DNA of 24,000 nucleotides from Brevibacillus sp. B_LB10_24 (GCF_046036945.1 NZ_JBJQOQ010000014.1:80719-104718), one strand, 5' to 3'; positions 7,986-22,808 are shown, counted from the stretch's first letter. Numbers and translations: made by a program. The notes: a model not told the origin generated them from the sequence alone.

Positions 7986-8447
7986 ATGAAGGTGGTGATG
8001 CGGGCACAGATGGAAGAGAGAAGTCAATTAGCCAAGCTGTTGTCGGTGATGGTCCATAAATTCATTGTTGCCTATGGCAAGATCCTGGACAGCGACCTTT
8101 CCGGATCCCAGGTATACATCCTGGAAATCCTGGACGAGGAAGGCGCGAAGAAAGGAACCGAACTGGCGGAGAGATTAGAGATCAGCCTGCCGGCGATTAC
8201 GAATCTCGCTAATAAATTGGTAAAAAAGGGATATATCGTGCGTCAGGTTCCCGAAAGCGACCGACGGGTGACGCTGCTTCAGATCACCCCGCTGGGTTCG
8301 CAGGTGCTGGAGAGGATTAATCAAAAGTACCTCGCCTTGACCAACACTCTTTGGGCAGGTTTTTCCGCCGAGGAGCTGGATGATCTGCTGAAGTACTACA
8401 GACGAATGGTTGACAATTTGCTGGAAAATCAAGCGGATGAGGAGTGA
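7986..8447 (+). CDS. MarR family transcriptional regulator
   Basis: Winged-helix core (GTELAERLEISLPAITNLANKLVKKGYIVRQVPESDRRVTLLQITPLG). Start is uncertain: ATG 7986, 7998 or 8010, with RBS-like AAGGTGG at 7989-7995. Confidence 0.88.
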   Translation: MKVVMRAQMEERSQLAKLLSVMVHKFIVAYGKILDSDLSGSQVYILEILDEEGAKKGTELAERLEISLPAITNLANKLVKKGYIVRQVPESDRRVTLLQITPLGSQVLERINQKYLALTNTLWAGFSAEELDDLLKYYRRMVDNLLENQADEE

Positions 8448-8453
8448 CTCAAC

Positions 8454-9209
8454 ATGCCTCAAACAGAACAGATTGCAGTAGTGACAGGCGCCGGGAGCGG
8501 CATGGGACGGGCCTCCAGCCTGAAGCTTTCGGAAATGGGCATGAAGCTGGTGCTGGTGGATTTCAACCGGCAAACAGGGGAAGAGACGCTCGGCATGATC
8601 AAGGAACAGGGCGGCGACGGTATTTTTGTGCAGGCAGATGTAAGCAAGAGCGCCGATGTGCAGCATTATGTGAACAAAGCGGTTGAAACCTACGGCCGGA
8701 TTGACGTTTTCTTCAATAATGCGGGCGTGATCCAAAAGCCGTATCTGCTGTCGGATATCCCTGACGAGGAGTTTGACCGCATCGTATCGGTCAACTTCAA
8801 AGGCGTTTTCTTCGGGTTGAAGTACGTGCTGAAGGTGATGGAAAAACAGGGCTACGGCGTGATCATCAACAACTCGTCCAGCTCCGGACTGCGGGTGGAG
8901 CACAGCTTGGCCGTCTATTCGGCGAGCAAGCACGCTGTGGTTGGACTTACGAAGTCGGCGGCGCTGGAATACGCCGATAAAGGAATCCGCGTGAACGCGA
9001 TTTGTCCTGGCGGTGTCGAGACCAACCTGGTAGCGGGCTTCCAAAAGACGATAGCCGAAACCGGGAATGTGCCGAAGATCGAATCTCCGCGCATCGGACG
9101 CATGGCTGATCCGCAGGAAATCGCCAATGTAGTGGCATTCCTGGCTTCGCCGGGAGCCAGTTACATGACCGGATCGATCGTTCCGATCGACGGCGGTCTT
9201 ACTCTGTAA
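8454..9209 (+). CDS. SDR family NAD(P)-dependent oxidoreductase
   Basis: 251 aa. TGAGSGMGR cofactor motif, NNAG, catalytic YSASK. Starts 6 nt after the MarR stop, suggesting an operon. Confidence 0.92.
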   Translation: MPQTEQIAVVTGAGSGMGRASSLKLSEMGMKLVLVDFNRQTGEETLGMIKEQGGDGIFVQADVSKSADVQHYVNKAVETYGRIDVFFNNAGVIQKPYLLSDIPDEEFDRIVSVNFKGVFFGLKYVLKVMEKQGYGVIINNSSSSGLRVEHSLAVYSASKHAVVGLTKSAALEYADKGIRVNAICPGGVETNLVAGFQKTIAETGNVPKIESPRIGRMADPQEIANVVAFLASPGASYMTGSIVPIDGGLTL

Positions 9210-9235
9210 CAGCGAAACAGCATATTTGCATGTGG

Positions 9236-9270
9236 GAAAAATACCGCCTCTGCTGACAGGGGCGGTTTTT
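9236..9270. terminator. Bidirectional rho-independent terminator between convergent genes
   Basis: Stem ACCGCCTC (9243-9250) / GGGGCGGT (9259-9266). An A-rich run lies upstream (GAAAAATA) and T5 downstream (9266-9270). It abuts the stop of the minus-strand activator gene. Confidence 0.75.
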
Positions 9271-10274
9271 CATGTCCGAATCTCGTCCTCATCGTGGCGG
9301 CAGTACTTGCGGATCAAGCGTGAGGCTTTGGATTGGCTGATTTTTAAATATTCCGCCACTTTCCGCGAGCTTTTGAACCTCTGGTATGACTCGCAAATCA
9401 TTTTCCTCTCTACTTCTGTCATGGCCGAAGCGAGCGAGGGCAGCAGCGTCCGCTCCTGTGGCGTGTGACCGCAGCAGCGAATGGCATCGGGCAAGTCGGG
9501 GACGTCGATCAAGGGATCAGAAGTGACGATCAGCTTTTCCAGCAGGTTTTCCAGTTGGCGGATATTGCCCGGCCAGGGAAACGACAGAAGCAGCTTCAGC
9601 GCTTGGTCGGAGATGCGGTGGAAACTGCCGAACTGCCGGTTGTATTTGTCCAGAAAAAAATGGATCAGCGGCAAAAGGTCGGCCTCCCGCTCGCGCAGCG
9701 GGGGGATTTTGATATCCAACACGTGAAGCCGGTAGTAGAGGTCTTCGCGAAACAGCTTCTTTTGCACCATCTCCTGCAGGTCGCAATTGGTCGCGGTCAC
9801 GATCCGGACATCTGCCTTTCTGGGTTCGCGCCTGCCGAGCGGAATGTATTCGCGGTGCGAAAGGAAGTGGAGCAGCTTTGGCTGCAGGTGCAGCGGCAGT
9901 TCGCCGATTTCATCCAAAAACAGGGTGCCGTGGTTGGCTGCTTCGATCAGGCCGATTTTTCCCTGCTTCAAGGCGCCGGTAAACGCCCCGGGCGAATAGC
10001 CGAACAATTCGGCTTCCAGCAAATTCTCCGGAATCGCCGAGCAGTTAATCGTGAGAAACGGCTGCTTCCGGCGGGAGCTGAAGCGGTGAATGAACTGGGC
10101 CAGGACGCTTTTTCCCGTACCGGTCTCGCCGTGCAGGAGAACGGTTGAGTCCACAGCAGCGGCCTTCCGGCACAGACGCAGCACCTTCTTCATGGCTTCG
10201 CTGTGGACGACAAGGGGCTGGTTTTGGTCTTCCAAGACTTGCGCTGTCGTCGGCAATGCTTTTGAAATATCCAC
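9270..10274 (-). CDS. Sigma-54-dependent transcriptional activator (bEBP) lacking an N-terminal sensory domain
   Basis: Walker A GETGTGKS, sigma-54 contact loop GAFTGA, Walker B LFLDEIGE, C-terminal Fis-type HTH (SRKVAEYLKISQSKASRLIRKY). The AAA+ core begins ~20 aa from the N-terminus. ORF-track TTG 10301 has no RBS; GTG 10274 has GGGGTGA ~7 nt upstream. Confidence 0.9.
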   Translation of the reverse strand: MDISKALPTTAQVLEDQNQPLVVHSEAMKKVLRLCRKAAAVDSTVLLHGETGTGKSVLAQFIHRFSSRRKQPFLTINCSAIPENLLEAELFGYSPGAFTGALKQGKIGLIEAANHGTLFLDEIGELPLHLQPKLLHFLSHREYIPLGRREPRKADVRIVTATNCDLQEMVQKKLFREDLYYRLHVLDIKIPPLREREADLLPLIHFFLDKYNRQFGSFHRISDQALKLLLSFPWPGNIRQLENLLEKLIVTSDPLIDVPDLPDAIRCCGHTPQERTLLPSLASAMTEVERKMICESYQRFKSSRKVAEYLKISQSKASRLIRKYCRHDEDEIRT

Positions 10275-10302
10275 TACGCTCTCACCCCTGTATATCCGCA
10301 AG

Positions 10303-10644
10303 CTATTGGGGAAGGTTTTGGCGGCCCGGGCTCTCCGCCAGGTTGAGCAGGACTACACCTACAATAATGATGGCGATCGCCAGCAGCCTGAGGGGGCTGA
10401 CCGATTCTTTCCAGAGTATGATGCCGATGACTACAGTCAGGGCGGTGCCCACTCCGGACCAAATGGCGTAAGCGGTGCCGAGCGGCAGGTATTTCAACGC
10501 GAGGGACAGGATGTAGAAAGAAGCGGCGTATCCGATGACCACGACCGTGCCGGGAACCCATTTGGTAAACCCCTCGGATAATTTCAATGCGGTGGTTGCG
10601 GTAATCTCCAGGAGTATGGCCGATGCCAAATAGACGAATTTCAT
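10303..10644 (-). CDS. SMR family small multidrug / quaternary-cation efflux transporter (EmrE/Qac subtype)
   Basis: 113 aa from ATG 10644 (RBS AAGGGGGA). Four TM segments, membrane-embedded Glu in TM1 (AILLEITATTALK), KLSEGF and AYAIWSGVG motifs as in EmrE. Confidence 0.9.
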   Translation of the reverse strand: MKFVYLASAILLEITATTALKLSEGFTKWVPGTVVVIGYAASFYILSLALKYLPLGTAYAIWSGVGTALTVVIGIILWKESVSPLRLLAIAIIIVGVVLLNLAESPGRQNLPQ

Positions 10645-11192
10645 CTCGCTTCCCCCTTCGACATGCTGATCAACAAATGCTGTACGCGCTCCCGCAGCTC
10701 GCCGTTCGTCAGCGGAGCCAGCCCAAACATCTCGGCGAACCACAAACCGTCGGCGGCCAGCCGGCAGATGGTCGCTGCTTCAGGGTCAATCCCGTCTCGT
10801 TCCAATTGTTCCTGCCAGCCTGCGTAGTAACGCCGGACAGGCTCCAACAGTTCCGGCTTGTTTACCAGTGCGGCCAGCAAGCCGGCGCTGATCTTCAATT
10901 CCTGCTCGGTACTGCGGAAGGTGGTGCGGACGTAGGCGCGCGCCCACTTCCCTGGGGAGTGGGGCTCCTGGGAGATGTCGTCCTCTATTTGCTGATGGTA
11001 TTCCTTGAACAAGTGATCGATCATACCCTCGATCAAGGCTTCCTTCGAGGGGAAGTGATACAAGAGGCCGCCTTTGCTGATATTCGCTTGCCCGGCAACC
11101 GCATCCAGCGTCAAACGGCCGATCCCCTCGTTTTGGATCAGGGCGTAAGCTGCTTCGAGAATCGTTTCGCGGGTTGTTTTTGTAGCTCCCAC
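10641..11192 (-). CDS. TetR/AcrR family transcriptional regulator
   Basis: GTG start with RBS AAAGGCGGT. N-terminal TetR HTH (TRETILEAAYALIQNEGIGRLTLDAVAGQANISKGGLLYHFPSKEAL). Its stop overlaps the SMR start (ATGA at 10641-10644). Confidence 0.9.
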   Translation of the reverse strand: MGATKTTRETILEAAYALIQNEGIGRLTLDAVAGQANISKGGLLYHFPSKEALIEGMIDHLFKEYHQQIEDDISQEPHSPGKWARAYVRTTFRSTEQELKISAGLLAALVNKPELLEPVRRYYAGWQEQLERDGIDPEAATICRLAADGLWFAEMFGLAPLTNGELRERVQHLLISMSKGEAR

Positions 11193-11231
11193 GCTTCTTA
11201 CCGCCTTTCGTTTCCGGTCTTATTTCTTTTT

Positions 11232-11261
11232 ACTATACCGTCTGGACGGTACAGTTGTCAA
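11232..11261 (-). promoter_or_regulatory. Promoter of the tetR-smr-activator operon with palindromic operator
   Basis: On the minus strand: TTGACA (11261-11256), 18 nt, TATAGT (11237-11232). A perfect 7-2-7 palindrome TACCGTCtgGACGGTA (11236-11251) lies across the -10/spacer. Confidence 0.65.
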
Positions 11262-11275
11262 TTCTTTCCTTTCCC

Positions 11276-11305
11276 CTGAGTGAGCCGTGACTCGCTTGAG
11301 TCAGG
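11276..11305. promoter_or_regulatory. Candidate upstream activating sequence for the sigma-54 activator
   Basis: Three TGA(G/C)T(G/C)A-like heptamers, centred at ~11280 (TGAGTGA), ~11291 (TGACTC, opposite orientation) and ~11300 (TGAGTCA). That is roughly one helical turn apart and ~70-95 bp upstream of the -24 element. T-tracts lie between them and the promoter. Confidence 0.35.
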
Positions 11306-11369
11306 CTGGAATCGCTTTTTTAACCGCTGTTTTTTCGCAAATTAATGAAGAATCAAGGGGTGTTCCCCT

Positions 11370-11385
11370 TGGCATTCCTCTTGCT
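11370..11385 (+). promoter_or_regulatory. Sigma-54 (-24/-12) promoter
   Basis: TGGCAT-tcctc-TTGCT against consensus TGGCAC-N5-TTGCW. It sits 46 nt upstream of the ATG at 11431 and is the only well-spaced match I found on either strand of the window. Confidence 0.8.
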
Positions 11386-11430
11386 TGAAGTGTTGGCGAA
11401 CAGCAATCTTGCGCAAGGGAGGAACAGGAA

Positions 11431-12855
11431 ATGGAACGCATTTTTGTGAACGGGCAATTTGCCGACAGCACAGCGGAAAAAAGCAAGGTGATCGTCAATC
11501 CTGCAACGGAGGAGGAGATTGCCGAAATCCCGCTGTGCGGGGAAAAAGACGTGGAGCAGGCAGTAGCCGCGGCCCGGAAAGCCTTTTTCAGCTGGGGAGC
11601 GACGACACCGGCAGAGCGAAGCGCCCTCCTGCTGAAAATTGCCGATCGGGTGGAGCAGCATCTGGAGAGCCTGGCGCTGATCGAATCGCAGAATGTCGGC
11701 AAACCACTCGAGGTCGCAAGGTTTGACGTGTGTGCCTTTGTCGATAATCTGCGCTTTTTTGCCGGAGCCGCCCGAACGCTGCAGGGCTTGAGCTGTGGCG
11801 AATACATGGAGGGACACACCAGCATGATCCGGCGCGAGCCCGTGGGCGTCGTCGGTTCCATCACGCCATGGAATTACCCGCTGCTGATGGCCGGCTGGAA
11901 GATTGGTCCAGCTCTGGCCGCAGGCAACACAGTGGTGCTCAAACCGTCGGAGTTGACTCCCCTGTCAGCGTTGAAGCTGGCGGAGCTGACGGCAGACCTG
12001 CTCCCGCCGGGCGTGTTGAATGTCGTCACAGGGCTTGGCGAGGAAGCGGGAGCGGCGTTGGCCAGGCATCCCGGCGTGCACATGATCTCGCTCACCGGTA
12101 GCGTCAGGGCGGGCAAGGCGGTTGCCCGGGAAGCGTCCGCCGCCTTGAAAAAAGTGCACCTGGAGTTGGGCGGTAAGGCTCCCGTGGTCATATTTGACGA
12201 TGCCGACCTTGACGAAGCCGTGAACGGGATTCGCCTGGCCGGATTTTCCAACAGCGGACAGGATTGTACGGCGGCCGCCAGAATTTATGTGGAAAAAGGA
12301 TCGTACGAAGCGCTCCTGGACAAACTTGCAGCCGCAGCCCAGAGCATCGTCGTAGGTGATCCGCTGACGGAAGGGACGGAGATGGGGCCGCTGGTCTCGC
12401 AGGAACATCTGGAAAGAGTCGCCGGTTTTGTCGAGCGCGCCCGGAGCAAGCCCCAGGTACAGGTACTTGCCGGAGGGGAGAGGCTAGAGGGCCGCGGATT
12501 TTTCTACAAGCCGACAGTGCTTGCGGGGGTCAGCCAGAGCGATGAGATTATCCGGGAAGAAGTGTTTGGTCCCGTGGTGACCGTCATGCCGTTTGCTTCC
12601 GAGGATGAGGCAATGGAGCTTGCCAACGACTGTCAATATGCGCTGTCCACGTCTGTCTGGACACAGAACACGTCGCGGGCGATGAAATTCGTCAAACAGC
12701 TTCAGTACGGAACCGTCTGGGTCAATACCCACTTCCTGCTGACCAGTGAAATGCCGCATGGCGGTTTCAAAAATTCCGGTTATGGCAAGGATCAATCGAT
12801 CTATGCCGTCGAGGAGTACACCGAGATCAAACACGCCATGATTCGCTTTGCATAA
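11431..12855 (+). CDS. NAD-dependent aldehyde dehydrogenase, gamma-aminobutyraldehyde dehydrogenase (PatD/YdcW)-like
   Basis: 474 aa. RBS GGGAGGA. ALDH motifs ELGGKAP and catalytic GQDCTAA. Long stretches match my recollection of E. coli PatD (EGHTSMIRREPVGVV, PWNYPLLMAGWKIGPALAAGN, VWVNTHF..SEMPHGG.K.SGYGKD). Confidence 0.92.
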   Translation: MERIFVNGQFADSTAEKSKVIVNPATEEEIAEIPLCGEKDVEQAVAAARKAFFSWGATTPAERSALLLKIADRVEQHLESLALIESQNVGKPLEVARFDVCAFVDNLRFFAGAARTLQGLSCGEYMEGHTSMIRREPVGVVGSITPWNYPLLMAGWKIGPALAAGNTVVLKPSELTPLSALKLAELTADLLPPGVLNVVTGLGEEAGAALARHPGVHMISLTGSVRAGKAVAREASAALKKVHLELGGKAPVVIFDDADLDEAVNGIRLAGFSNSGQDCTAAARIYVEKGSYEALLDKLAAAAQSIVVGDPLTEGTEMGPLVSQEHLERVAGFVERARSKPQVQVLAGGERLEGRGFFYKPTVLAGVSQSDEIIREEVFGPVVTVMPFASEDEAMELANDCQYALSTSVWTQNTSRAMKFVKQLQYGTVWVNTHFLLTSEMPHGGFKNSGYGKDQSIYAVEEYTEIKHAMIRFA

Positions 12856-12883: not shown

Positions 12884-14008
12884 TTGAAGCAGGATTTCGT
12901 TCAGCTGCAGCATCGCTACCATGAAGATGTGGAGCGCTCTTACACACTGCCCTCTTATTTTTACTTCGACCCTGCTGTCCTGGAGGCGGAGCGGAAGGAG
13001 ATTTTCGAAAAAAGTTGGATTTGCGTCGGCCATGAGGAGAAAGTAAGGGAGCCGGGAGATTATTTTACCGTGTCGCTGTTCGACCAGAATATCGTAATCA
13101 TCAGAGGAAAGGATCAGGTCGTGCGGGCTTTTTACAATGTCTGCCCGCATCGCGGCCACGAATTGGTAAGCGGGGAGGGCAACAAGCCGCTGATCGTCTG
13201 CCCGTACCACGCATGGAGCTTTCAGCTTGACGGCCGCTTTCACAACGGCAGGGCTGTCCGCCAAATGAAGCAGTTCGACGAGCAGGAAGCTTGTTTGCGC
13301 CCTGTCCAAGTGGAGCGCTTTGCCCATTTCCTGTTTGTCAATCTCGATCCTGCGGCGAAGCCGCTGCAAGAAATGATTCCGGGAGTGGAAGAAGAAATCC
13401 GGCAGCGCGTACCCGTTCTGGACAAATTGACGCTATCGCACAGAATCTCCTATGAGATCAAAGCCAATTGGAAAAACGTGCTCGACAACTACCTGGAGTG
13501 CCATCACTGTGCCGTTGCCCATCCGCAGTTTGTGGAGATTGTCGATATGGCCAAGTACCGACTGAAGACGTTCGACTACCACATCCTGCAGACCGGTGCA
13601 GGCAAAAAAAGGCTTGGCAGCAACCGGACGCCTGATGATCAGGAAAACGCTGTGGCCATGTATACCTCCTATTGGCTGTGGCCCAACCTGGCGATTGACA
13701 TCATGCCGGGAGAACCCGGGCTGATCGTCATGCATGTACTGCCTGACGGTCCCGAGACAACGGTGCAGCACCTGGAGTTTTACTATTTGCAGAAGGAGCC
13801 GACGCAGGAGGGATGGGCCAATATCGAATATCAGGACAAAGTGCTGAATCCGGAAGATTTTGCCCTGGTGGAAAGCGTGCAGCGGGGGCTGCGTTCCAAG
13901 GGATACGCTGACGGGCGCTACGTCGTCGACCAGGATCGTTCGTCTATCAGCGAGCATGCCGTGCACCACTTTCACGGACTCGTGCTGAAAGCTTTGGGAG
14001 CGCGCTAG
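12884..14008 (+). CDS. Rieske [2Fe-2S] non-heme-iron oxygenase, alpha/oxygenase component (CntA/YeaW/GbcA-like)
   Basis: TTG start 10 nt after GGAGG. Rieske motif CPHRGHEL...CPYHAWSF. Mononuclear iron motif NYLECHHCAVAHP. Segments AFYNVCPHRGH, ANWKNVLDNYLEC and PEDFALVESVQRGLRSKGY resemble carnitine/gamma-butyrobetaine oxygenase YeaW/CntA as I recall it. Confidence 0.9.
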   Translation: MKQDFVQLQHRYHEDVERSYTLPSYFYFDPAVLEAERKEIFEKSWICVGHEEKVREPGDYFTVSLFDQNIVIIRGKDQVVRAFYNVCPHRGHELVSGEGNKPLIVCPYHAWSFQLDGRFHNGRAVRQMKQFDEQEACLRPVQVERFAHFLFVNLDPAAKPLQEMIPGVEEEIRQRVPVLDKLTLSHRISYEIKANWKNVLDNYLECHHCAVAHPQFVEIVDMAKYRLKTFDYHILQTGAGKKRLGSNRTPDDQENAVAMYTSYWLWPNLAIDIMPGEPGLIVMHVLPDGPETTVQHLEFYYLQKEPTQEGWANIEYQDKVLNPEDFALVESVQRGLRSKGYADGRYVVDQDRSSISEHAVHHFHGLVLKALGAR

Positions 14009-15387: not shown

Positions 15388-15469
15388 AGAATTCGAAATT
15401 TAAAAATTATTCCCTTAAATTGCGTGTATAATAGAGACAGAAAACTCGCTTGATGGGGGGATTGTGGGA

Positions 15470-17038
15470 ATGAGTGATTTGAACCGGGCCAGAAGAAATA
15501 CGCTTGGGGATATTTTGCGACGGAGCAGAGCGCGCTATCCGGACAAGACGGCGCTGAATTTTGAAGGAGAGGTCTTGTCCTACCGGCAGTTGGACGATGC
15601 GGTTAACCAGGCGGCGAACGCGATCCTGGCCCAAGGACTGAAAAAAGGGGACCGTGCTGCCGTCCTCTCCCGCAACTCGCTCGATTTTGCCATTCTCAAT
15701 TTCGCGTTGGCCAAGTCTGGTGTGATCATGGTGCCGATCAACTACATGCTCAATGTTGACGACGTGGCGTTTATTCTCAGCCATGCAGATGTAAGCGCTC
15801 TCTTCGTCTCGCCGGAGTTCCAGCCGATCGCCGAGCAAGCCGTCCCCAAATCGGGCTGCACGCTGCGGCTGAAGTCGCTCATTTCCAGACCTTCGGCACA
15901 AATCGGGGAGTGGGTTCCATTTCGCGAGCTGATCAGCGGGGCCGAGCTGGCGGAGCCGGAAGCGGAGCTTTGGGATGACGACGTCGTTCACATCCTGTAT
16001 ACGAGCGGCACCGAGTCCAAGCCAAAAGGCGTCATGCTCACCCATAAAAACGTAATCAGCGAGTATGTCAGTACCATCATCGACGGCGGCATGACGAGTG
16101 ACGATGTGGCGATCCATGCGCTTCCCTTGTTTCACTCTGCCCAGCTGCACTGCTTTTTGGGGCCGTACATCTACCTCGGGGCCAGCGGCATCATCCTGGA
16201 ACAAGCCGCGCCTGCGACGATCCTGGAGGCGATTGAGACGCATCGGGCAACACAGCTGTTCTGTCCGCCGACCGTCTGGATCGCCCTGCTGCGTTCCCCC
16301 GACTTCGACCGGCGCGATCTCTCCTCTCTGCAAAAATGCTACTACGGAGCGGCGATCATGCCCGTCGAGGTGCTGAGGGAATGCAACCTGCGGCTGCCGT
16401 CAGCCCGCTTCTGGAATTTTTACGGGCAGACCGAGGTCGCTCCGCTGGCGACGGTACTCAAACCGGAAGACCAGATCAGAAAAGCGGGCTCGGCGGGAAA
16501 GCCCGGCCTGAATGTGGAGACCAGAATCGTCGATGACAACGGCGACGAGGTGCCCCGCGGCCAGATCGGCGAGATCGTGCACCGCACAAGTCACGCCATG
16601 CTGGGCTACTACCGGGACGAGGAGAAGACGGCAGCGGCTTTTCACGGCGGATGGTTTCACAGCGGGGACTTGGGCATCATGGATGAAGAAGGGTACATCA
16701 CCGTCGTGGATCGCAAGAAAGACCTGATCAAATCAGGCGGGGAAAACGTCGCCAGCCGGGAAGTGGAAGAGTTGATCTATCAGCATCCGAAAGTATCGGA
16801 GGTGGCGGTGATCGGCGTCCCCCATCCCTACTGGATCGAAGCGGTTACCGCCGTAGTGGTGCCCAAATCAGGCGAATTGCTCGGACCGGAAGACATCCTG
16901 CTGTTTTGCAAGGAGCATTTGTCCTCGTTTAAATCTCCCAAGTACGTCGTCATCGCCGACAATCTGCCGCGCAATCCGAGCGGCAAAATTCTGAAACGGG
17001 AGCTTCGCGCGCAGTATCAATCGATTGCCGCAGATTGA
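15470..17038 (+). CDS. AMP-dependent acyl-CoA synthetase/ligase (class I adenylate-forming enzyme)
   Basis: ATG 15470 lies 8 nt after GGGGGGA (the ORF-track ORF starts at GTG 15464). AMP-binding motif YTSGTESKPKGV; also YGQTE, GDLG..DEEGY and the C-terminal PRNPSGKILKRELR. TATAAT at 15427-15432 upstream. I saw no terminator hairpin between the permease and this gene. Confidence 0.92.
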   Translation: MSDLNRARRNTLGDILRRSRARYPDKTALNFEGEVLSYRQLDDAVNQAANAILAQGLKKGDRAAVLSRNSLDFAILNFALAKSGVIMVPINYMLNVDDVAFILSHADVSALFVSPEFQPIAEQAVPKSGCTLRLKSLISRPSAQIGEWVPFRELISGAELAEPEAELWDDDVVHILYTSGTESKPKGVMLTHKNVISEYVSTIIDGGMTSDDVAIHALPLFHSAQLHCFLGPYIYLGASGIILEQAAPATILEAIETHRATQLFCPPTVWIALLRSPDFDRRDLSSLQKCYYGAAIMPVEVLRECNLRLPSARFWNFYGQTEVAPLATVLKPEDQIRKAGSAGKPGLNVETRIVDDNGDEVPRGQIGEIVHRTSHAMLGYYRDEEKTAAAFHGGWFHSGDLGIMDEEGYITVVDRKKDLIKSGGENVASREVEELIYQHPKVSEVAVIGVPHPYWIEAVTAVVVPKSGELLGPEDILLFCKEHLSSFKSPKYVVIADNLPRNPSGKILKRELRAQYQSIAAD

Positions 17039-17168
17039 GTATGAACACGTATCACGGCGGGGGAAGAACAAGACACCAGGTGACAGAAAAACCTCCCGGT
17101 GCAGCGAAACAACGAGGAGTCAGCAAGGAACGCCACAGGAATATGGAAAATATATGGGAGGTAGAGAA

Positions 17169-17663
17169 ATGTCAACTAGCAAGGAAGTTTTGGTTACACA
17201 GATGTTCGCTTGCCATAATCAGGATGGATGGTTTGCTCCGTTGAATTTTGTCTTGCGAGGTGTTACAGAGGAACAGGCTGTCCAAGGAGGGAAAGGTTCT
17301 TCAAATTCCATTTATGGTATCGTTCGTCACCTTATCTTTTGGAATGAACGTTATCTAAAATGTTTTAACGAAGGCGATTTACCACCGCTTGAAATAGTCA
17401 CCAATTCTGAGACGTTTCAGGAGAGCGGGATGTCTGCAAGCTGGGATGAGCTGCAAATGAGATTGGACGACGTCCTTGCCCAATGGGAACAAGCTATCAT
17501 GAACTGCGATGATTCAAAATTGGACAGTCAAACCCACCCGGATCGAGACGTACCATGGTGGACGTTAATAGCCCACATAGCACTCCATAACGCCTATCAC
17601 ATTGGCCAGATCGTCTACATTCGGAAGGAACGAGGTTCGTGGGAAACATGGGATGAAGAATGA
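17169..17663 (+). CDS. DinB family protein
   Basis: ATG 17169 lies 6 nt after GGGAGGT (the ORF-track ORF begins at 17025 without an RBS). 164 aa with DinB-like His-containing helices (VRHLIFWNERY, IAHIALHNAYHIGQIVYIRK). Confidence 0.85.
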   Translation: MSTSKEVLVTQMFACHNQDGWFAPLNFVLRGVTEEQAVQGGKGSSNSIYGIVRHLIFWNERYLKCFNEGDLPPLEIVTNSETFQESGMSASWDELQMRLDDVLAQWEQAIMNCDDSKLDSQTHPDRDVPWWTLIAHIALHNAYHIGQIVYIRKERGSWETWDEE

Positions 17664-17669
17664 GTCTAT

Positions 17670-17702
17670 ACCCCCAGTCAGCAGCTGGGGGTTCATTTTT
17701 TT
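17670..17702 (+). terminator. Rho-independent terminator
   Basis: ACCCCCAG (17670-17677) / CTGGGGGT (17685-17692), then TCATTTTTTT. Confidence 0.8.
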
Positions 17703-17952: not shown

Positions 17953-18738
17953 ATGAAATTGTTAAATATCTCAGAGGCAGCCAAACTTCTTGGGATTTCA
18001 GCCAGCACGCTGCGCAGACTGGAACATGACGGCGTTGTGGAAGGATACGGATTGAGTGTGATTTATACACCGGGGGGGCAGCGCAGGTACATTTTAGACG
18101 AAATACAGCATCTGTATTCACAGCAGGGCTTCTCCGGACAAATCGGATTTGGCGGCAAACCGGCTGTGCTTGTTCGCGACATGACTTTGGCTTTTACGGA
18201 TCCGAATTCTAAATTATCCATCCAGTTAAACGGCCAGATTGAAGCGGTAACACAACTGGTTAAAACTGCTCTTGCCAATCATTTTCCGGTTGTTTTCAGC
18301 AAGACCATCTACGACTCGGCAGATAAATTTTCACAGCTTTGGGGACAAAAATTTCCTTCCATACAGCTGCTTGACCGTAATACGGCATGGGTGAAAATTC
18401 ATCCTACATTAGATGAATTTACGTATGACATGGTTAACGCAACCACTTACATTAACGATTTTTACTGCTCACCGCTGGATGAGTTTCTGCAGCAAAGAGA
18501 AATCGATACGGTCATATTGGCTGGAACCACAACGAGCGGCAGCATCCGGGCAAATGCCGTGGAAGCCCTGCAGCGCGGGTATCGTGTCATCATTCCAGAA
18601 GAAGCTGTCGGCGACCGTTCCGAATCGATTCAAAGAGCGACCCTTCTCGACTTGCATGCGCGTTACGCTGATGTCATGACGTTGGAAAAAGTGTTGAAAT
18701 GCGTGAACGAAGCGGGATCACTAAGAAAATCGAAGTAA
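17953..18738 (+). CDS. MerR-type HTH domain fused to an isochorismatase-like (CSHase/NicF/PncA-branch) domain with Cys-to-Ser at the nucleophile position
   Basis: 261 aa, RBS AGGGAGGG. N-terminus ISEAAKLLGISASTLRRLEHDG...GGQRRY is a MerR/excisionase-type HTH. The C-terminal ~190 aa carry the isochorismatase-family strands PAVLVRDMTLAFTDP and VILAGTTTSGSIRANAVEA. The usual TxxC(V/I) nucleophile reads TSGSI. Confidence 0.85.
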   Translation: MKLLNISEAAKLLGISASTLRRLEHDGVVEGYGLSVIYTPGGQRRYILDEIQHLYSQQGFSGQIGFGGKPAVLVRDMTLAFTDPNSKLSIQLNGQIEAVTQLVKTALANHFPVVFSKTIYDSADKFSQLWGQKFPSIQLLDRNTAWVKIHPTLDEFTYDMVNATTYINDFYCSPLDEFLQQREIDTVILAGTTTSGSIRANAVEALQRGYRVIIPEEAVGDRSESIQRATLLDLHARYADVMTLEKVLKCVNEAGSLRKSK

Positions 18739-19431: not shown

Positions 19432-20670
19432 ATGAACAAGTCTTTTCGTGTCGGTATTATCGGTGGCGGTATTGGCGGGGTTGCTTTGGCGCGAGCCCTG
19501 TGGCAACGCGGCATTTCTTTTCGGTTGTTTGAACAGGCAGCGGAGTTCAGGGAAGTTGGCGCCGGTATCCAAATGACGCCGAATGCTGTGAAGGTATTGA
19601 AATCACTCGGGCTAGCAGACGAAATGAAGCGGGTCGGTTTCTTGCCGGAAGCGATGGTGGGCCGCGGTTGGGAGACAGGCGAGGAGTTATTTCGGACTCC
19701 CTTAAAAGATACGTTTGTCCAACTTTTTGGTGCTCCGTACTATCACGTGCACCGCGCTGACCTGCACAGTATCTTGACAGAAGGATTACCGGAAGAGTGC
19801 ATTACTTTTCATGTGAGATGTGTAGATGTCCAACTTAAGGGCGATAAGGCCGTTGCTGTATTTGACAATGGAGATGAATTCGAGGCTGACCTGATTGTCG
19901 GTGCGGACGGAATACGTTCTGCTGTCCGGGAAGGGTTGTGGGGCAAGGATGATCCGGCATTTACCGGGCATATGTGTTGGCGTGCGCTCGTTCCGGTCGA
20001 CAAGCATCCGCTGCCTTTCGTTCTGCCGGCAGTAACCTTTTGGTTTGGTCCCAAAGCACATGTGGTCACCTATTACGTCAAGGGCGGTCAGGCAGTAAAT
20101 ATCGTTGCCTGCAAAGAGACAGATGAATGGGTGAAAGAGTCATGGACAGAGCCCAGTTCGACTGAAGAACTATTGAAGGCGTACGATGGTTGGCATTCTG
20201 ACTTGATTCGTCTGTTCGAACGCACAGACAATTCACAGGTTTTCAAGTGGGGATTGTATGACCGCAATCCAATGGAGCGCTGGTCCCAAGGTCATGCGAC
20301 GCTCCTGGGTGACGCTGCCCATCCTATGCTTCCATACTTATCGCAGGGTGCCGCGATGGCGATAGAAGATGCTTATGTCCTCGCTGAAGCTCTTGTTCAT
20401 TTTGGCGGGAACGTACCCCTGGCATTGGACGCGTACGAAGCAGAACGACGCAATCGCACCCGGGACGTACAGCTGCAATCCCGTGAAAGAGGCCGTACCT
20501 ATCATCTGGAATCGCCTGAGGAACAACGGCAGCGGGATCTTGCTTTACGGGAGCGGCAGAGCCAAGATCCGAATGCGGTTGGCATCAGTGCCGAGTGGGT
20601 GTACGAGTACGACGCGACCACCTGCCGTCAGCGTTTTGGGGTATCTTCAGGCGTTAGCTTGAAGGAATAG
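19432..20670 (+). CDS. FAD-dependent aromatic hydroxylase (group A flavoprotein monooxygenase; salicylate hydroxylase / 3-hydroxybenzoate 6-hydroxylase / NicC-like)
   Basis: 412 aa, RBS GGGGGGAG. GxGxxG (IIGGGIGG), GADGIRS, LLGDAAHPMLPYLSQGAAMAIEDA. Segment-level resemblance to recalled NicC (FEQA..F...GAGI, HRADLH, WVYEYD). Confidence 0.92.
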   Translation: MNKSFRVGIIGGGIGGVALARALWQRGISFRLFEQAAEFREVGAGIQMTPNAVKVLKSLGLADEMKRVGFLPEAMVGRGWETGEELFRTPLKDTFVQLFGAPYYHVHRADLHSILTEGLPEECITFHVRCVDVQLKGDKAVAVFDNGDEFEADLIVGADGIRSAVREGLWGKDDPAFTGHMCWRALVPVDKHPLPFVLPAVTFWFGPKAHVVTYYVKGGQAVNIVACKETDEWVKESWTEPSSTEELLKAYDGWHSDLIRLFERTDNSQVFKWGLYDRNPMERWSQGHATLLGDAAHPMLPYLSQGAAMAIEDAYVLAEALVHFGGNVPLALDAYEAERRNRTRDVQLQSRERGRTYHLESPEEQRQRDLALRERQSQDPNAVGISAEWVYEYDATTCRQRFGVSSGVSLKE

Positions 20671-20724
20671 TAGGTTTGGTAATTTTCGGTAAATTTTTTA
20701 AAGTTCGAAATAGGGGGGATCAGC

Positions 20725-21543
20725 TTGAACGATAAGGAGCTTTTCGGACAAATGTTAGTCAAAGGCCTTAACGCGGATATCCATTTACTTACCAAAGGCG
20801 ACAGCAACGGGGTACCGGTTCTTTTTCTTCCGGGCATTACAAGCTACAGTATGTCATTTTCGGAAATTCTAAAGCGGATGCCTGATCACTTCTACTGTTT
20901 GTCCATGGATATCCGCGGGCGCGGGAAATCCAGCTGGCCCAAACAGGGATACCGCATGCAGGATTACGTTGAGGATTTGCTCAATGTGGTGAATGCGTTA
21001 ACGAGAAATCAGACGGCACCATTCCTTGTCGGCCATTCCATGGGGGCGAGAATTGCAGCCGGTTTTGGCAGCGCATACTCATCTCTCATTTCCGGTATGG
21101 TGCTCATCGACCCCCCGGTTACCGGTCCGGGTCATCGACAAGTTTACCCCAATTCCCTCTCCATGTTTCTGGAACAAAAAGCCGCGGCAGACGAAGAGGA
21201 ATGGGACAAATTTCGCGCCTTTTATCCGCACTTTACGGAAGAACAACGGAAGATACGAATTACCGAATACCTGAACGTAAGCAAGGAAGCGATCATCGAA
21301 TCGTACAACAACTTTATCAAAGAACCTTTTCAGGTCCATGTAAAATTGACAACTTGTCCCATGCTGCTGTTAGCCGCTGAACTTGGAGATACAATTCGTC
21401 CTGATGAACTTGCCGAGTTGAAGTCTCTCAATTCCCGTTTGCAGGCCGTTGTCGTGAACGGCGTTGGTCACATGGTATACAAGGAGGCACCTCAGGTAAC
21501 AGCGGAATCTATCATCTCTTTCATCAGCGATCATCTGAAATAA
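20725..21543 (+). CDS. Alpha/beta hydrolase fold protein
   Basis: 272 aa, TTG start after GGGGGGA. Nucleophile elbow GHSMGA, C-terminal GVGHMV His motif. 54-nt gap to the hydroxylase with no terminator. Confidence 0.9.
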   Translation: MNDKELFGQMLVKGLNADIHLLTKGDSNGVPVLFLPGITSYSMSFSEILKRMPDHFYCLSMDIRGRGKSSWPKQGYRMQDYVEDLLNVVNALTRNQTAPFLVGHSMGARIAAGFGSAYSSLISGMVLIDPPVTGPGHRQVYPNSLSMFLEQKAAADEEEWDKFRAFYPHFTEEQRKIRITEYLNVSKEAIIESYNNFIKEPFQVHVKLTTCPMLLLAAELGDTIRPDELAELKSLNSRLQAVVVNGVGHMVYKEAPQVTAESIISFISDHLK

Positions 21544-21621
21544 CGGTATGGTACGAAAAGCGGGTGAACGTATTTTTGTGGTGTCATATAGAAAAAGTCA
21601 GTCATAAAGGGGTTGGGATGA

Positions 21622-22797: not shown

Positions 22798-22808
22798 GGA
22801 GGGTTACG

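What the first reader, a model, noticed from the sequence alone, without database searches (positions are those of the whole stretch)
9270..11261. Sensor-less sigma-54 activator is the terminal gene of a TetR-controlled tetR-smr operon: signal input appears outsourced to a TetR repressor
Seen: the bEBP has an intact AAA+ core (GETGTGKS, GAFTGA, LFLDEIGE) and a Fis-type HTH, but only ~20 residues precede the AAA+ domain, so no PAS/GAF/receiver/V4R module is present. Its likely GTG start (10274) lies 28 nt after the SMR stop (10303-10305). The SMR start overlaps the TetR stop (ATGA). I see neither a promoter nor a terminator between the three genes. The operon promoter (TTGACA-18-TATAGT) carries a perfect palindrome TACCGTCtgGACGGTA. 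Established knowledge: bEBPs lacking a regulatory domain (PspF, HrpR/S) are constitutively active ATPases controlled in trans. Inference: activator abundance, and therefore firing of the divergent sigma-54 promoter ~120 bp away, would be set by ligand-dependent TetR derepression. The same signal would switch on an EmrE-type cation exporter. A TetR to EBP to sigma-54 cascade that couples efflux and catabolism of a cationic amine would be an unusual regulatory design.
Basis: partly seen in the sequence, partly recalled or inferred. Interest (0 to 1): 0.75.

Follow-up and report, generated by a model that had tools for sequence, protein, structure and literature searches.

The report
TetR-gated, sensor-less sigma-54 activator operon
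A Brevibacillus sigma-54 activator has lost its own signal-sensing domain and is made only as the last gene of an operon shut off by a TetR repressor, so the repressor probably acts as the sensor for a neighbouring quaternary-amine breakdown operon; related genomes preserve the evolutionary steps that led to this arrangement.

Summary
The minus strand carries a strong sigma-A promoter with an embedded palindrome, then tetR, smr and a 334-aa sigma-54 activator (EBP), then a terminator. The EBP has about 21 residues before its AAA+ domain. A perfect sigma-54 promoter lies about 110 bp away on the other strand.

- **TetR operator.** The same palindrome sits upstream of tetR in 25 of 80 homologous TetR loci across phyla. 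None of those 80 has an EBP.
- **EBP binding site.** I found a separate site, a tandem GAGTC-N6-GACTC, about 75-100 bp upstream of the sigma-54 promoter. It also occurs in relatives that have no TetR.
- **Not a pseudogene.** The short EBP has dN/dS of about 0.1 and intact motifs.
- **Evolutionary series.** Relatives show PAS-EBP alone, then tetR-PAS-EBP, then tetR-(smr)-short EBP. TetR and EBP trees mirror each other. PAS was lost twice, and only in TetR-linked lineages.
- **Target operon.** It encodes a CntA-like quaternary-ammonium Rieske oxygenase, an aldehyde dehydrogenase and a permease.
- **SMR pump.** It is optional; 4 of 8 tetR-EBP loci lack it.

I rate it a new variant of a known kind, since cascades onto sensor-less EBPs already exist (CysB to SfnR). 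Interest 0.6.

The parts
11232..11261 (-). Sigma-A promoter of the tetR-smr-EBP operon (TTGACA-18-TATAGT)
   Evidence: It is the only sigma-70-like hit in 8900-11700, matching 11 of 12 positions. The same TTGACAactgTAC...GGTATAnT promoter stands upstream of tetR in L001, L002, L003, L005, L087 and L096.
11232..11255 (.). TetR operator: ACTATACCGTC-tg-GACGGTACAGT inverted repeat between the -35 hexamer and across the -10 hexamer
   Evidence: It is an 11+2+11 inverted repeat, 91% complementary, with a unique perfect core in the window. The same motif lies within 450 bp upstream of tetR in 25 of 80 TetR_C_28 homologue loci from several phyla. Those account for 25 of the 27 occurrences in 1.13 Mb. 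It follows tetR, not the sigma-54 promoter, in L005, L087 and L096.
10641..11192 (-). tetR (183 aa; TetR_N plus TetR_C_28)
   Evidence: Pfam hits at 4e-13 and 1e-34. The nearest solved structures are the CgmR entries (2yvh, 2zoz, 2yve, 2zoy) and Rv3066. dN/dS is 0.05-0.12 against orthologues. EBP-linked TetRs form one clade among 87 homologues.
10303..10644 (-). smr (113 aa; small multidrug resistance, Qac/EmrE-like exporter). An accessory member of the operon.
   Evidence: PF00893 covers 1-93 of 93 positions at 7e-30. The best NCBIfam hits (EbrB, BcrB, Qac) all fall below their cut-offs. Its ATG overlaps the tetR stop as ATGA. It is present in L001 and L003 but absent in L002, L005, L087 and L096. 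26 of 80 other TetR_C_28 loci carry an adjacent smr.
9270..10274 (-). Sensor-less sigma-54 enhancer-binding protein (334 aa; AAA+ domain, lid, HTH; no regulatory domain)
   Evidence: Sigma54_activat scores 7e-67 and begins at residue 22 from the GTG. AAA_lid_14 and HTH_50 follow. It is 100% identical to P0001 from Brevibacillus sp. B_LB10_24. The alignment shows a clean absence of the ~125-aa PAS region found in relatives of 58% identity or less. dN/dS is 0.08-0.12.
9243..9266 (.). Hairpin terminator shared by the EBP gene and the convergent SDR gene
   Evidence: One search reports 10 pairs, 7 of them G-C, with T-runs on both strands.
11277..11311 (.). Candidate EBP enhancer (UAS). Two 16-bp sites of the form GAGTC-N6-GACTC, 4 nt apart. 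On the minus strand: GATTC-cagcct-GACTC-aagc-GAGTC-acggct-CACTC.
   Evidence: The central palindrome GACTCAAGCGAGTC is unique in the window. The same half-sites and the same N6/N4/N6 frame lie ~75-100 bp upstream of the sigma-54 -24 element in L001-L003. They are also present in PAS-EBP loci that have no TetR, L006 and L097. In L087 and L096 the target promoter is about 5-7 kb from tetR, and the sites stay with the target promoter.
11370..11385 (+). Sigma-54 promoter TGGCAttcctcTTGCT (GG at 11371-11372, GC at 11383-11384)
   Evidence: It is the only perfect match in the window. TGGCA-N6-TTGC is conserved at the same position in L001, L002, L003, L005, L006, L087, L096 and L097.
11431..12855 (+). 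Aldehyde dehydrogenase (aminobutyraldehyde-dehydrogenase subfamily). First gene of the sigma-54 operon.
   Evidence: PF00171 at 3e-171. NF010000 scores 716.8 against a cut-off of 615.
12884..14008 (+). Group Va Rieske oxygenase, like carnitine monooxygenase CntA (cleaves C-N bonds of quaternary ammonium compounds)
   Evidence: CntA structure 6y8j matches at E=4e-94 over residues 17-368. The residues aligned to CntA Y203 (pi-cation tyrosine), E205, H208 and H213 are conserved, in DNYLECHHCAVAHP. Their roles are taken from PMC7948474.
14047..15387 (+). APC-family permease, the probable substrate importer
   Evidence: AA_permease at 6e-35. Orthologues sit next to the Rieske gene in L001, L002, L005, L087 and L096.
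15464..17692 (+). Acyl-CoA synthetase, a DinB-family protein and a terminator. Possibly the tail of the sigma-54 operon.
   Evidence: NF006182 scores 793 against a cut-off of 663, and DinB_2 is detected. No terminator-like site lies in the permease-synthetase gap (15388-15463); the strongest plus-strand hairpin is at 17670-17692. The pair is not conserved in the other loci, so membership is uncertain.

Best explanation
This is a two-tier switch. TetR is the sensor and a PAS-less sigma-54 activator is the output amplifier.

**Without inducer.** TetR sits on the 24-bp palindrome that spans the spacer and -10 hexamer of the only promoter of the tetR-smr-EBP operon. Little EBP is made. RNA polymerase with sigma-54 stays in a closed complex at 11370-11385.

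**With inducer.** The inducer is probably a quaternary ammonium compound or related cation; carnitine, gamma-butyrobetaine, choline-like molecules or a cationic surfactant are candidates. It releases TetR and the three genes are transcribed together. The EBP has no inhibitory N-terminal domain. It therefore assembles on the tandem GAGTC-N6-GACTC enhancer (11277-11311) about 100 bp upstream and uses ATP to open the sigma-54 promoter. That switches on the aldehyde dehydrogenase, the CntA-like oxygenase and the permease. Possibly the acyl-CoA synthetase and DinB gene follow.

**Feedback.** Co-expressed TetR resets the system. In this lineage the SMR pump adds an efflux valve for the same class of cation.

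**Shown by sequence and comparison:** the parts, their conservation, the assignment of each palindrome to its protein, purifying selection, co-divergence of TetR and EBP, and the order of events (TetR capture first, PAS loss later, twice).

**Inferred:** co-transcription, constitutive EBP activity, and the identity of the ligand.
For: - **Anatomy.** There is a single strong promoter. The gene junctions are an ATGA overlap and a 28-nt gap. No internal promoter-like or terminator-like site was found, and a terminator follows the EBP.
- **Operator assignment.** The palindrome recurs upstream of tetR in 25 of 80 TetR_C_28 homologue loci that have no EBP. Those are 25 of 27 hits in 1.13 Mb. In L005, L087 and L096 it stays with tetR although the sigma-54 promoter is kilobases away.
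- **Enhancer assignment.** The tandem GAGTC-N6-GACTC sits about 75-100 bp upstream of the -24 element in the window and L001-L003. It is also present in TetR-less PAS-EBP loci L006 and L097 and in L087 and L096. The HTH recognition region (SRKVAxxLxISQxxAxRLIRKY) is nearly invariant across these proteins.
- **The EBP is functional.** It has a Walker A motif, GAFTGA, a Walker B motif, a lid domain and an HTH. dN/dS is 0.08-0.12. Orthologues of 324-334 aa share 61-68% identity.
- **Coupling is old and specific.** EBP-linked TetRs form one clade among 87 homologues with the same internal split as the EBP tree. Gene spacing is tight in every locus, at 22-66 nt.
- **Loss of the sensor follows TetR capture.**
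  - L006 and L097 have a PAS-EBP and no TetR.
  - L087 and L096 have tetR-PAS-EBP.
  - The window, L001-L003 and L005 have tetR-(smr)-short EBP.
  - P0030 (short) is 74% identical to P0029 (PAS) over residues 135-444 but only 53% identical to the window EBP.
  - The PAS region of P0029 is collinear with that of P0007, so PAS was lost twice.
- **Chemistry is coherent.**
  - The oxygenase carries the group Va quaternary-ammonium signature.
  - The TetR is closest to the solved CgmR structures, which I recall to be a repressor that binds cationic drugs, and to Rv3066.
  - One third of its homologues sit next to Qac-type SMR pumps.
- **Established knowledge (my own, not retrieved).** In ligand-sensing EBPs of the PAS/V4R class (XylR, DmpR, B. 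subtilis RocR), the N-terminal domain represses the AAA+ domain within the same molecule. Deleting it gives constitutive activators.
Against: - There is no expression, binding or activity data. Co-transcription is inferred from spacing and pattern scans only, and those scans cannot exclude a weak internal promoter. In L005 a 9-of-12 promoter-like match lies in the 66-nt tetR-EBP gap.
- Sensor-less EBPs studied so far (PspF, HrpR/S) are controlled by protein partners (PMC7175178). An unlinked anti-activator cannot be excluded.
- The TetR ligand is unknown. It need not be the substrate of the catabolic operon.
- In L087 and L096 TetR coexists with PAS. TetR gating alone was therefore not always sufficient, or not always the only input.
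- The enhancer in the second PAS-less locus (L005) is degenerate. That system could be decaying rather than streamlined.
- The trees are neighbour-joining without support values.
- The window has no reductase gene next to the oxygenase.
Confidence: 0.6

Rival explanations
1. TetR sets only the amount of EBP. EBP activity is switched by a protein partner, as PspA does for PspF and HrpV for HrpS. The partner could be an unlinked anti-activator or the TetR protein itself, acting as a detachable ligand-binding module on the AAA+ domain.
For: All well-studied EBPs that lack a regulatory domain are controlled in trans by protein binding (table in PMC7175178). TetR and EBP have co-diverged as a pair, which would also be expected of interacting proteins.
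Against: No PspA-, HrpV- or NifL-like gene is conserved in any of the nine loci. The only conserved neighbours are tetR, the oxygenase and the permease. TetR keeps its family's usual self-operator, which is enough to explain the linkage. I know of no precedent for a TetR protein binding an AAA+ activator.
Confidence: 0.15
2. The EBP is expressed independently of TetR, from a weak promoter inside smr or tetR or by read-through. TetR regulates only itself and the pump. The sigma-54 operon is then either constitutive or controlled by something else.
For: Consensus scans miss weak or non-sigma-A promoters. A 9-of-12 match exists in the tetR-EBP gap of L005. tetR-smr pairs are complete units elsewhere, in 26 of 80 loci.
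Against: No promoter-like site lies on the minus strand between 11232 and 9270. In L002, L005, L087 and L096 the EBP follows tetR directly, at 22-66 nt, with no smr. The tetR-EBP adjacency has persisted through co-divergence. PAS loss occurs only in TetR-linked lineages.
Confidence: 0.12
3. The module is a detoxification response rather than a nutrient pathway. TetR senses a toxic cationic surfactant or biocide. It switches on both the pump and, through the EBP, an OxyBAC-like dealkylating oxygenase. The aldehyde dehydrogenase and acyl-CoA synthetase then dispose of the released alkyl chain. The regulatory mechanism is the same as in the best explanation; only the physiological reading differs.
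For: Group Va Rieske oxygenases include the benzalkonium oxygenase OxyBAC (PMC7948474). The operon in the window continues into a fatty acyl-CoA synthetase with no terminator-like site in the intervening gap. The TetR family is typically paired with Qac-type SMR pumps.
Against: The oxygenase is far closer to CntA (E=4e-94) than to anything else solved, and it has Tyr, not the Phe of OxyBAC, at position 203. A dedicated importer of the APC family is conserved in the operon, and PAS-EBP relatives have OpuAC-type uptake systems. That points to a nutrient. The acyl-CoA synthetase and the pump are not conserved in the other loci.
Confidence: 0.1
4. The short EBP is a decaying remnant of a PAS-EBP with no function.
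For: It clearly derives from PAS-bearing ancestors. The enhancer of the second PAS-less locus, L005, is degenerate.
Against: dN/dS is 0.08-0.12 and all catalytic motifs are intact. Length is conserved across orthologues of 61-68% identity. The sigma-54 promoter and enhancer are conserved in four loci.
Confidence: 0.03

Closest known systems
CysB-controlled sfnECR operon ending in the sigma-54 activator SfnR, which then activates sfnFG (Pseudomonas putida DS1; Endoh et al. 2003 and 2005, cited in PMC8234197)
   Same: A sigma-54 activator is the terminal gene of an operon whose transcription is set by a different, signal-responsive regulator. The result is a two-step cascade onto a catabolic sigma-54 promoter.
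   Different: The upstream regulator there is a LysR-type activator (CysB), not a self-repressing TetR. There is no pump, the organism is a proteobacterium, and no evolutionary series showing loss of a sensor domain is known. That SfnR lacks a sensory domain is from my memory; I could not retrieve the paper.
PspF/PspA and HrpR-HrpS/HrpV (group 4 bEBPs; PMC7175178)
   Same: The activator consists of an AAA+ domain and an HTH only, with no cis regulatory domain, so the signal input is supplied from outside the protein.
   Different: Those are controlled by an anti-activator protein that binds the AAA+ domain. No such gene is present here, and control appears to act on synthesis. The window EBP scores 223 bits against the PspF model, whose cut-off is 443, so it is not a PspF orthologue. 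Its nearest relatives are PAS-EBPs.
PAS-domain sigma-54 activators of Bacillales next to CntA-like oxygenase operons (P0007/L006, P0022/L097). More broadly the RocR/AcoR/BkdR class of B. subtilis.
   Same: They share the AAA+ and HTH core (50-58% identity), the enhancer half-sites and frame, the type of sigma-54 promoter and the type of target operon.
   Different: They carry a ~125-aa N-terminal PAS sensor and have no tetR upstream. The window protein lacks the PAS domain and is tetR-linked.
TetR-SMR efflux cassettes: Rv3066-Mmr of M. tuberculosis, bcrABC and sugR-sugE of Listeria, and the CgmR repressor of C. glutamicum
   Same: A self-repressed tetR is followed by a small multidrug resistance pump. 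A palindromic operator lies inside the promoter. The nearest solved structures are CgmR and Rv3066. 26 of 80 homologues have the tetR-smr layout.
   Different: None of the 80 homologous loci carries an EBP. Here the cassette has been extended by a transcription activator, so it controls a second, sigma-54 operon. The Listeria systems and the Rv3066-Mmr pairing are cited from my own knowledge.
Carnitine monooxygenase CntA/CntB (Acinetobacter baumannii; E. coli YeaW/YeaX)
   Same: The oxygenase is a close homologue (E=4e-94) with the group Va tyrosine, the bridging glutamate and the iron ligands conserved.
   Different: No CntB-type reductase is adjacent in the window. L005, L087 and L096 have a Pyr_redox_2 reductase instead, and L087 and L096 also a ferredoxin. 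The substrate is unverified. I found no paper linking this enzyme to sigma-54 control.

Membership tests
Bacterial enhancer-binding protein (sigma-54 activator, clade 6 AAA+) | Sigma-54 interaction AAA+ domain with Walker A, Walker B and the GAFTGA loop | tested here: met
   PF00158 at 7e-67 covering positions 2-167 of 168. GETGTGKS at 49-56, GAFTGA at 96-101, DEIGE at 121-125.
Bacterial enhancer-binding protein (sigma-54 activator, clade 6 AAA+) | C-terminal HTH DNA-binding domain and a cognate upstream enhancer near a sigma-54 promoter | tested here: met
   HTH_50 at 1e-06. The tandem GAGTC-N6-GACTC lies ~75-100 bp upstream of a perfect TGGCA-N6-TTGCT and is conserved in 8 loci. Binding itself was not tested.
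Bacterial enhancer-binding protein (sigma-54 activator, clade 6 AAA+) | ATP-dependent remodelling of the sigma-54 closed complex | not testable with these tools
   This needs ATPase and in vitro transcription assays.
Group 4 bEBPs (PspF, HrpR/S): no regulatory domain, controlled in trans by a protein | Absence of an N-terminal regulatory domain | tested here: met
   21 residues precede the AAA+ domain and no Pfam domain is found there. The alignment shows the PAS block of relatives is missing.
Group 4 bEBPs (PspF, HrpR/S): no regulatory domain, controlled in trans by a protein | A dedicated anti-activator protein (PspA- or HrpV-like) encoded with or near the activator | tested here: not met
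   No such gene appears in the window or in any of the related loci. An unlinked partner cannot be excluded.
Group 4 bEBPs (PspF, HrpR/S): no regulatory domain, controlled in trans by a protein | Orthology to PspF | tested here: not met
   TIGR02974 scores 223 bits against a cut-off of 443.55. The nearest relatives are PAS-EBPs.
TetR-family repressor (TetR_C_28 subfamily) | N-terminal TetR HTH plus a C-terminal ligand and dimerisation domain | tested here: met
   PF00440 at 4e-13 and PF17937 at 1e-34.
TetR-family repressor (TetR_C_28 subfamily) | Palindromic operator overlapping its own promoter | tested here: met
   An 11+2+11 inverted repeat covers the spacer and -10 hexamer. It is conserved upstream of tetR in 25 of 80 homologue loci and in 6 EBP-linked loci.
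TetR-family repressor (TetR_C_28 subfamily) | Ligand-induced release from DNA | not testable with these tools
   This needs EMSA or ITC with candidate cations.
Small multidrug resistance (SMR) exporter, Qac/EmrE subtype | A protein of ~110 aa with four transmembrane helices, a full-length PF00893 match and the membrane-embedded glutamate in helix 1 | tested here: met
   PF00893 covers 1-93 of 93 positions at 7e-30. Glu13, in ...AILLEITATT..., corresponds by position to EmrE E14 (sequence; the residue's role is from my own knowledge).
Small multidrug resistance (SMR) exporter, Qac/EmrE subtype | Membership of a named exporter family (EbrB, BcrB, QacC, EmrE, SugE) | tested here: not met
   All NCBIfam scores fall below their cut-offs. 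The best is EbrB at 106.7 against 160.
Group Va quaternary-ammonium Rieske oxygenases (CntA, choline monooxygenase, OxyBAC) | Rieske domain, catalytic domain, and an aromatic residue at CntA position 203, with the bridging Glu205 and the His208/His213 iron ligands | tested here: met
   6y8j matches at E=4e-94. Y, E, H and H align in DNYLECHHCAVAHP. Residue roles are from PMC7948474.
Group Va quaternary-ammonium Rieske oxygenases (CntA, choline monooxygenase, OxyBAC) | A cognate reductase partner and demonstrated turnover of a quaternary amine | tested here: inconclusive
   No reductase gene is adjacent in the window. A Pyr_redox_2 reductase is present in L005, L087 and L096, with a ferredoxin also in L087 and L096. 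Enzyme activity cannot be tested here.

The most novel reading that the evidence does not exclude
Once a TetR repressor gene was captured upstream of a PAS-containing sigma-54 activator, the activator's own sensor became dispensable and was deleted independently in two lineages. This would be a natural, stepwise replacement of allosteric control by control of synthesis, with all three stages still extant (PAS-EBP; tetR-PAS-EBP; tetR-short EBP). The more radical version is that TetR also contacts the AAA+ domain directly and acts as a detachable sensor subunit.
Probability: 0.45. Interest if true: 0.75.

Novelty: new variant of a known kind. Interest (0 to 1): 0.6.

Why it matters
Sigma-54 activators are textbook one-protein sensor-actuators. 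The few that lack a sensor are thought to need a protein anti-activator. This locus and its relatives suggest a third solution: put the bare activator behind a small-molecule-responsive repressor.

Extant genomes preserve the intermediate in which both sensors coexist. That makes a question about how regulatory circuits are rewired directly testable. The ancestral PAS domain can be restored, or removed from the intermediate. One can then ask what TetR gating adds, for example threshold, delay or low basal ATPase cost.

The locus also identifies a previously undescribed regulatory route for CntA-type quaternary-amine oxygenases. These are of interest because they generate trimethylamine. Finally, it supplies a compact, probably orthogonal part set for synthetic biology in Firmicutes: TetR and its operator, plus a constitutive EBP, its enhancer and a sigma-54 promoter.

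Tried and rejected
1. **The palindrome in the tetR promoter might be the EBP enhancer.** Rejected. It occurs upstream of tetR in 25 EBP-free loci. It stays with tetR when the sigma-54 promoter is kilobases away.
2. **5'-truncated pseudogene.** Rejected on dN/dS, intact motifs and conserved length.
3. **Other 'short' EBP hits as further examples.**
   - P0118 is a frameshift-fragmented contig with the PAS ORF just upstream.
   - I did not look up P0004, P0005, P0018, P0094, P0101 or P0111; most lie on contigs of only 1-4 kb and may be cut.
   - P0037 and P0051 group tightly with full-length PAS proteins in the tree.
4. **Genome-wide scan with the TetR alignment.** It returned 80 homologues but no additional EBP-linked locus.
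5. **Metagenome scan with the EBP.** It returned only seven distant EBPs, with nothing informative.
6. **Look-ups of P0010 and P0015.** Both failed; neither is on record.
7. **Second TetR operator or second sigma-54 promoter in the window.** None found.
8. **Rfam.** No RNA family anywhere in the window.
9. **Literature.** No paper was found linking TetR control to a sensor-less EBP, or CntA to sigma-54. The SfnR2 paper could not be retrieved.
10. **Structure prediction.** Not used. No question here depended on a fold.

Full report
**What is in the window**

The window matches Brevibacillus sp. B_LB10_24; the EBP is 100% identical to P0001. The minus strand reads as follows.

- A sigma-A promoter, TTGACA (11261-11256), 18 nt, TATAGT (11237-11232).
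- tetR at 11192-10641.
- smr at 10644-10303, whose ATG overlaps the tetR stop as ATGA.
- A 28-nt gap with a GGGGTGA ribosome-binding site.
- A 334-aa sigma-54 activator from GTG 10274 to 9270.
- A hairpin terminator at 9243-9266.

The promoter is the only sigma-70-like match on either strand in 8900-11700. No terminator-like site lies between the three genes on the minus strand.

Pfam confirms each gene.
- tetR has TetR_N and TetR_C_28.
- smr is a full-length SMR.
- The activator has Sigma54_activat, then AAA_lid_14, then HTH_50. Sigma54_activat starts at residue 22 counted from the GTG.
- Nothing is detected in the first 21 residues.

Walker A (49-56), GAFTGA (96-101) and Walker B (118-125) are intact. 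On the plus strand, TGGCATTCCTCTTGCT at 11370-11385 is the only perfect sigma-54 promoter match in 24 kb. It precedes an aldehyde dehydrogenase, a Rieske oxygenase and an APC permease.

**Is the short activator real?**

The protein search gave a small group of orthologues of 324-334 aa at 61-68% identity: P0002, P0003 from Brevibacillus fluminis, and P0006. Almost every hit at or below 58% identity is a ~445-480-aa protein with an N-terminal PAS domain. The few shorter hits are discussed below.

The alignment shows a clean absence of about 125 residues. The short proteins keep an M-D-[ILV]-S start that resembles the first residues of the PAS proteins. They then resume in the linker before the AAA+ domain.

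Where dS can be computed, dN/dS between orthologues is 0.08-0.12 for the EBP and 0.05-0.12 for TetR. This is a derived, PAS-less, selectively maintained gene, not a truncated pseudogene.

**Conservation of the layout**

| Locus | Regulator genes | Target genes |
|---|---|---|
| L001 (B. fluminis) | tetR-smr-EBP | divergent Rieske-permease |
| L003 | tetR-smr-EBP | divergent Rieske |
| L002 | tetR-EBP, no smr | divergent Rieske-permease |
| L004/L005 (Bacillaceae, P0030, 311 aa) | tetR-short EBP, no smr | convergent ALDH-Rieske-permease-reductase |

The conserved core is therefore tetR, the EBP, the oxygenase and the permease. The pump is accessory.

**Which palindrome belongs to which protein**

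Aligning the intergenic regions shows three conserved elements.

1. The sigma-54 promoter, TGGCA-N6-TTGC.
2. A tandem pair of 16-bp sites of the form GAGTC-N6-GACTC, 4 nt apart. In the window they span 11311-11277, with the nearly perfect central palindrome GACTCAAGCGAGTC at 11302-11289.
3. The tetR promoter with its embedded ACTrTACCGTCyrGACGGTAyAGT palindrome.

Two natural experiments separate the last two elements.

- In L005, L087 and L096 the target operon is several kilobases from tetR. The TACCG..CGGTA palindrome stays in the tetR promoter. The GAGTC-N6-GACTC pair stays about 90 bp upstream of the sigma-54 promoter.
- The PAS-EBP loci L006 and L097 have no TetR at all. They still carry the same tandem enhancer in the same N6/N4/N6 frame.

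I then scanned one genome per species with a TetR alignment, which returned 80 homologues at 37-51% identity.
- None has an EBP within 8 kb.
- 26 have an adjacent smr.
- 25 have the same palindrome within 450 bp upstream of the tetR (or smr-tetR) unit. These are 25 of only 27 occurrences in 1.13 Mb.
- The taxa include Chloroflexota, Planctomycetota, Actinomycetota and Myxococcota.

The palindrome in the promoter is therefore this TetR subfamily's own operator. The GAGTC sites are the EBP enhancer. Their centre lies about 76 bp from the -24 element and about 100 bp from the expected transcription start, the usual distance.

**Evolutionary order**

A neighbour-joining tree of the 120 best EBP hits, using the AAA+-to-HTH region, places the Brevibacillus short clade (P0001-P0006) as sister to a clade of P0015, P0030 and P0023/24/29.

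- P0029 (Siminovitchia terrae, L087) and P0023 (L096) are 444-445-aa PAS proteins. A TetR_C_28 gene lies 22-25 nt upstream of each.
- The short P0030 is 74% identical to P0029 over residues 135-444, and their TetRs are 70% identical. P0030 is only 53% identical to the window EBP.
- The PAS region of P0029 is collinear with that of the TetR-less P0007, so it is ancestral and not regained.
- In a tree of 87 TetR_C_28 homologues, the seven EBP-linked TetRs form a single clade with the same internal split as the EBP tree.

The most economical history has three steps. A PAS-EBP controlled a quaternary-amine oxygenase operon (state A: L006, L097). A tetR was captured once upstream of the EBP (state B: L087, L096). 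The PAS domain was then lost independently in the Brevibacillus lineage and in the P0030 lineage (state C). Among the loci examined, PAS loss is seen only where TetR is present. The trees carry no support values, so the 'twice' rests mainly on the pairwise identities.

**What the system controls**

- The Rieske protein matches the carnitine monooxygenase CntA structure at E=4e-94.
- It keeps the residues aligned to Y203, E205, H208 and H213. Y203 makes the pi-cation contact with the trimethylammonium group and defines group Va (PMC7948474).
- The first gene passes the NCBIfam aminobutyraldehyde-dehydrogenase subfamily cut-off.
- PAS-EBP relatives have OpuAC-type uptake systems in place of the APC permease.
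- The closest solved structures to the TetR are the CgmR entries and Rv3066. I recall CgmR as a cation-binding multidrug repressor and Rv3066 as the regulator of the SMR pump Mmr.

Together these point to a quaternary ammonium compound as both substrate and signal. That step is inference.

**Mechanism proposed**

Without inducer, TetR blocks the only promoter of the operon, so no EBP is made. With inducer, tetR, smr and the EBP are transcribed together. The PAS-less EBP assembles on the enhancer and opens the sigma-54 promoter.

From established knowledge of this class (XylR, DmpR, RocR; my own recollection), the N-terminal domain of ligand-sensing EBPs is an inhibitor acting within the same molecule, and removing it gives constitutive activity. 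A natural PAS-less descendant should therefore be active as soon as it is made.

In the Brevibacillus layout the enhancer ends 10-15 nt upstream of the tetR -35 hexamer. The EBP may therefore also feed back on its own promoter; this is speculation. Confidence in the cascade is about 0.6.

**Rivals**

- An unidentified anti-activator, or TetR acting by protein contact, cannot be excluded. No conserved candidate gene exists, and the self-operator suffices to explain the linkage.
- A TetR-independent internal promoter is not visible in the window. It also fits poorly with loci where the EBP follows tetR directly. A weak 9-of-12 match in the L005 gap keeps this possibility alive.
- A detoxification reading (OxyBAC-like oxygenase, aldehyde dehydrogenase and acyl-CoA synthetase acting on cationic surfactants) fits the window's extra genes. 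It does not fit the conserved importer or the tyrosine at position 203.

**Comparison with what is known**

Reviews place sensor-less EBPs (PspF, HrpR/S) in a class regulated by protein binding in trans (PMC7175178). In Clostridiales, 11 of 490 EBPs lack an N-terminal domain (PMC6615313).

A cascade in which a sigma-54 activator is the last gene of an operon controlled by another regulator is known for CysB and SfnR (references in PMC8234197). I found nothing describing a TetR in that role, nor sigma-54 control of CntA-type oxygenases.

I therefore rate this a new variant of a known kind. Its particular value is the preserved intermediate state and the repeated loss of the sensor.

**Limits**

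Everything functional is inferred from sequence and comparison. The number of independent loci is small: eight tetR-EBP loci (the window and seven others, L004 and L005 being near-duplicates) plus two TetR-less loci. The second PAS-less locus has a degenerate enhancer. The ligand is unknown.

Noticed in passing
window 11353-11372: An inverted repeat, CAAGGGGTGTTCCCCTTGG (8 pairs), overlaps the -24 GG of the sigma-54 promoter. The scan flagged it as terminator-like on both strands. It is absent from the orthologous regions of L001-L003, so it may be a lineage-specific site for another regulator, or it may have no function.
   Followed up: partly
L005 12350-12400: The second PAS-less locus keeps the enhancer's N6/N4/N6 spacing, but its half-sites are degenerate (GTGTC-N6-GGTTG-N4-CAGCC-N6-GAACG). 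Its PAS-bearing sisters L087 and L096 keep cAGTC-N6-GACTC. The site may be relaxed because an uninhibited EBP needs less affinity, or it may be an early sign of decay.
   Followed up: partly
window 15464-17692: A fatty acyl-CoA synthetase and a DinB-family gene follow the permease with no terminator-like site in the intervening gap (15388-15463); a strong hairpin follows DinB at 17670-17692. They may be co-transcribed from the sigma-54 promoter. They are not conserved in the related loci.
   Followed up: partly
window 17953-18738: A 261-aa ORF combines an N-terminal MerR-type HTH with an isochorismatase-family hydrolase domain. This is an uncommon fusion of a regulator with an enzyme fold.
   Followed up: no
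window 7986-9266: A MarR-family regulator (7986-8447) and a short-chain dehydrogenase (8454-9209) form a tight pair that converges on the EBP gene and shares the hairpin at 9243-9266.
   Followed up: no
L006 7413-8729: In one TetR-less relative, the sigma-54 gene itself (Sigma54_AID, CBD and DBD domains) lies immediately downstream of, and convergent with, the PAS-EBP.
   Followed up: no
L088 6472-7888: The apparent 295-aa 'short EBP' P0118 is an artefact of a frameshift-ridden contig. A separate PAS ORF overlaps its start, and many neighbouring genes are also fragmented. Length alone is not a safe criterion for sensor-less EBPs in metagenome data.
   Followed up: yes
L003 51-1338: The Rieske oxygenase gene of this metagenomic orthologue is called as two pieces, of 265 aa and 171 aa. 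This is either an assembly frameshift or a disrupted gene.
   Followed up: no
L096 5360-5390 and L087 6360-6390: In the two tetR-PAS-EBP loci the left half of the TetR operator is partly degenerate (CACCAACCAGTCGGTA and TACCGCCCAGTCGGTA), while the right half and the promoter hexamers are kept. TetR control may be weaker where the PAS sensor is still present.
   Followed up: no
window 19432-23684: Downstream lie a 3-hydroxybenzoate-6-monooxygenase-like flavoprotein, an alpha/beta hydrolase and the start of a branched-chain-amino-acid-type ABC uptake system. This is a separate catabolic cluster, not linked to the finding.
   Followed up: no
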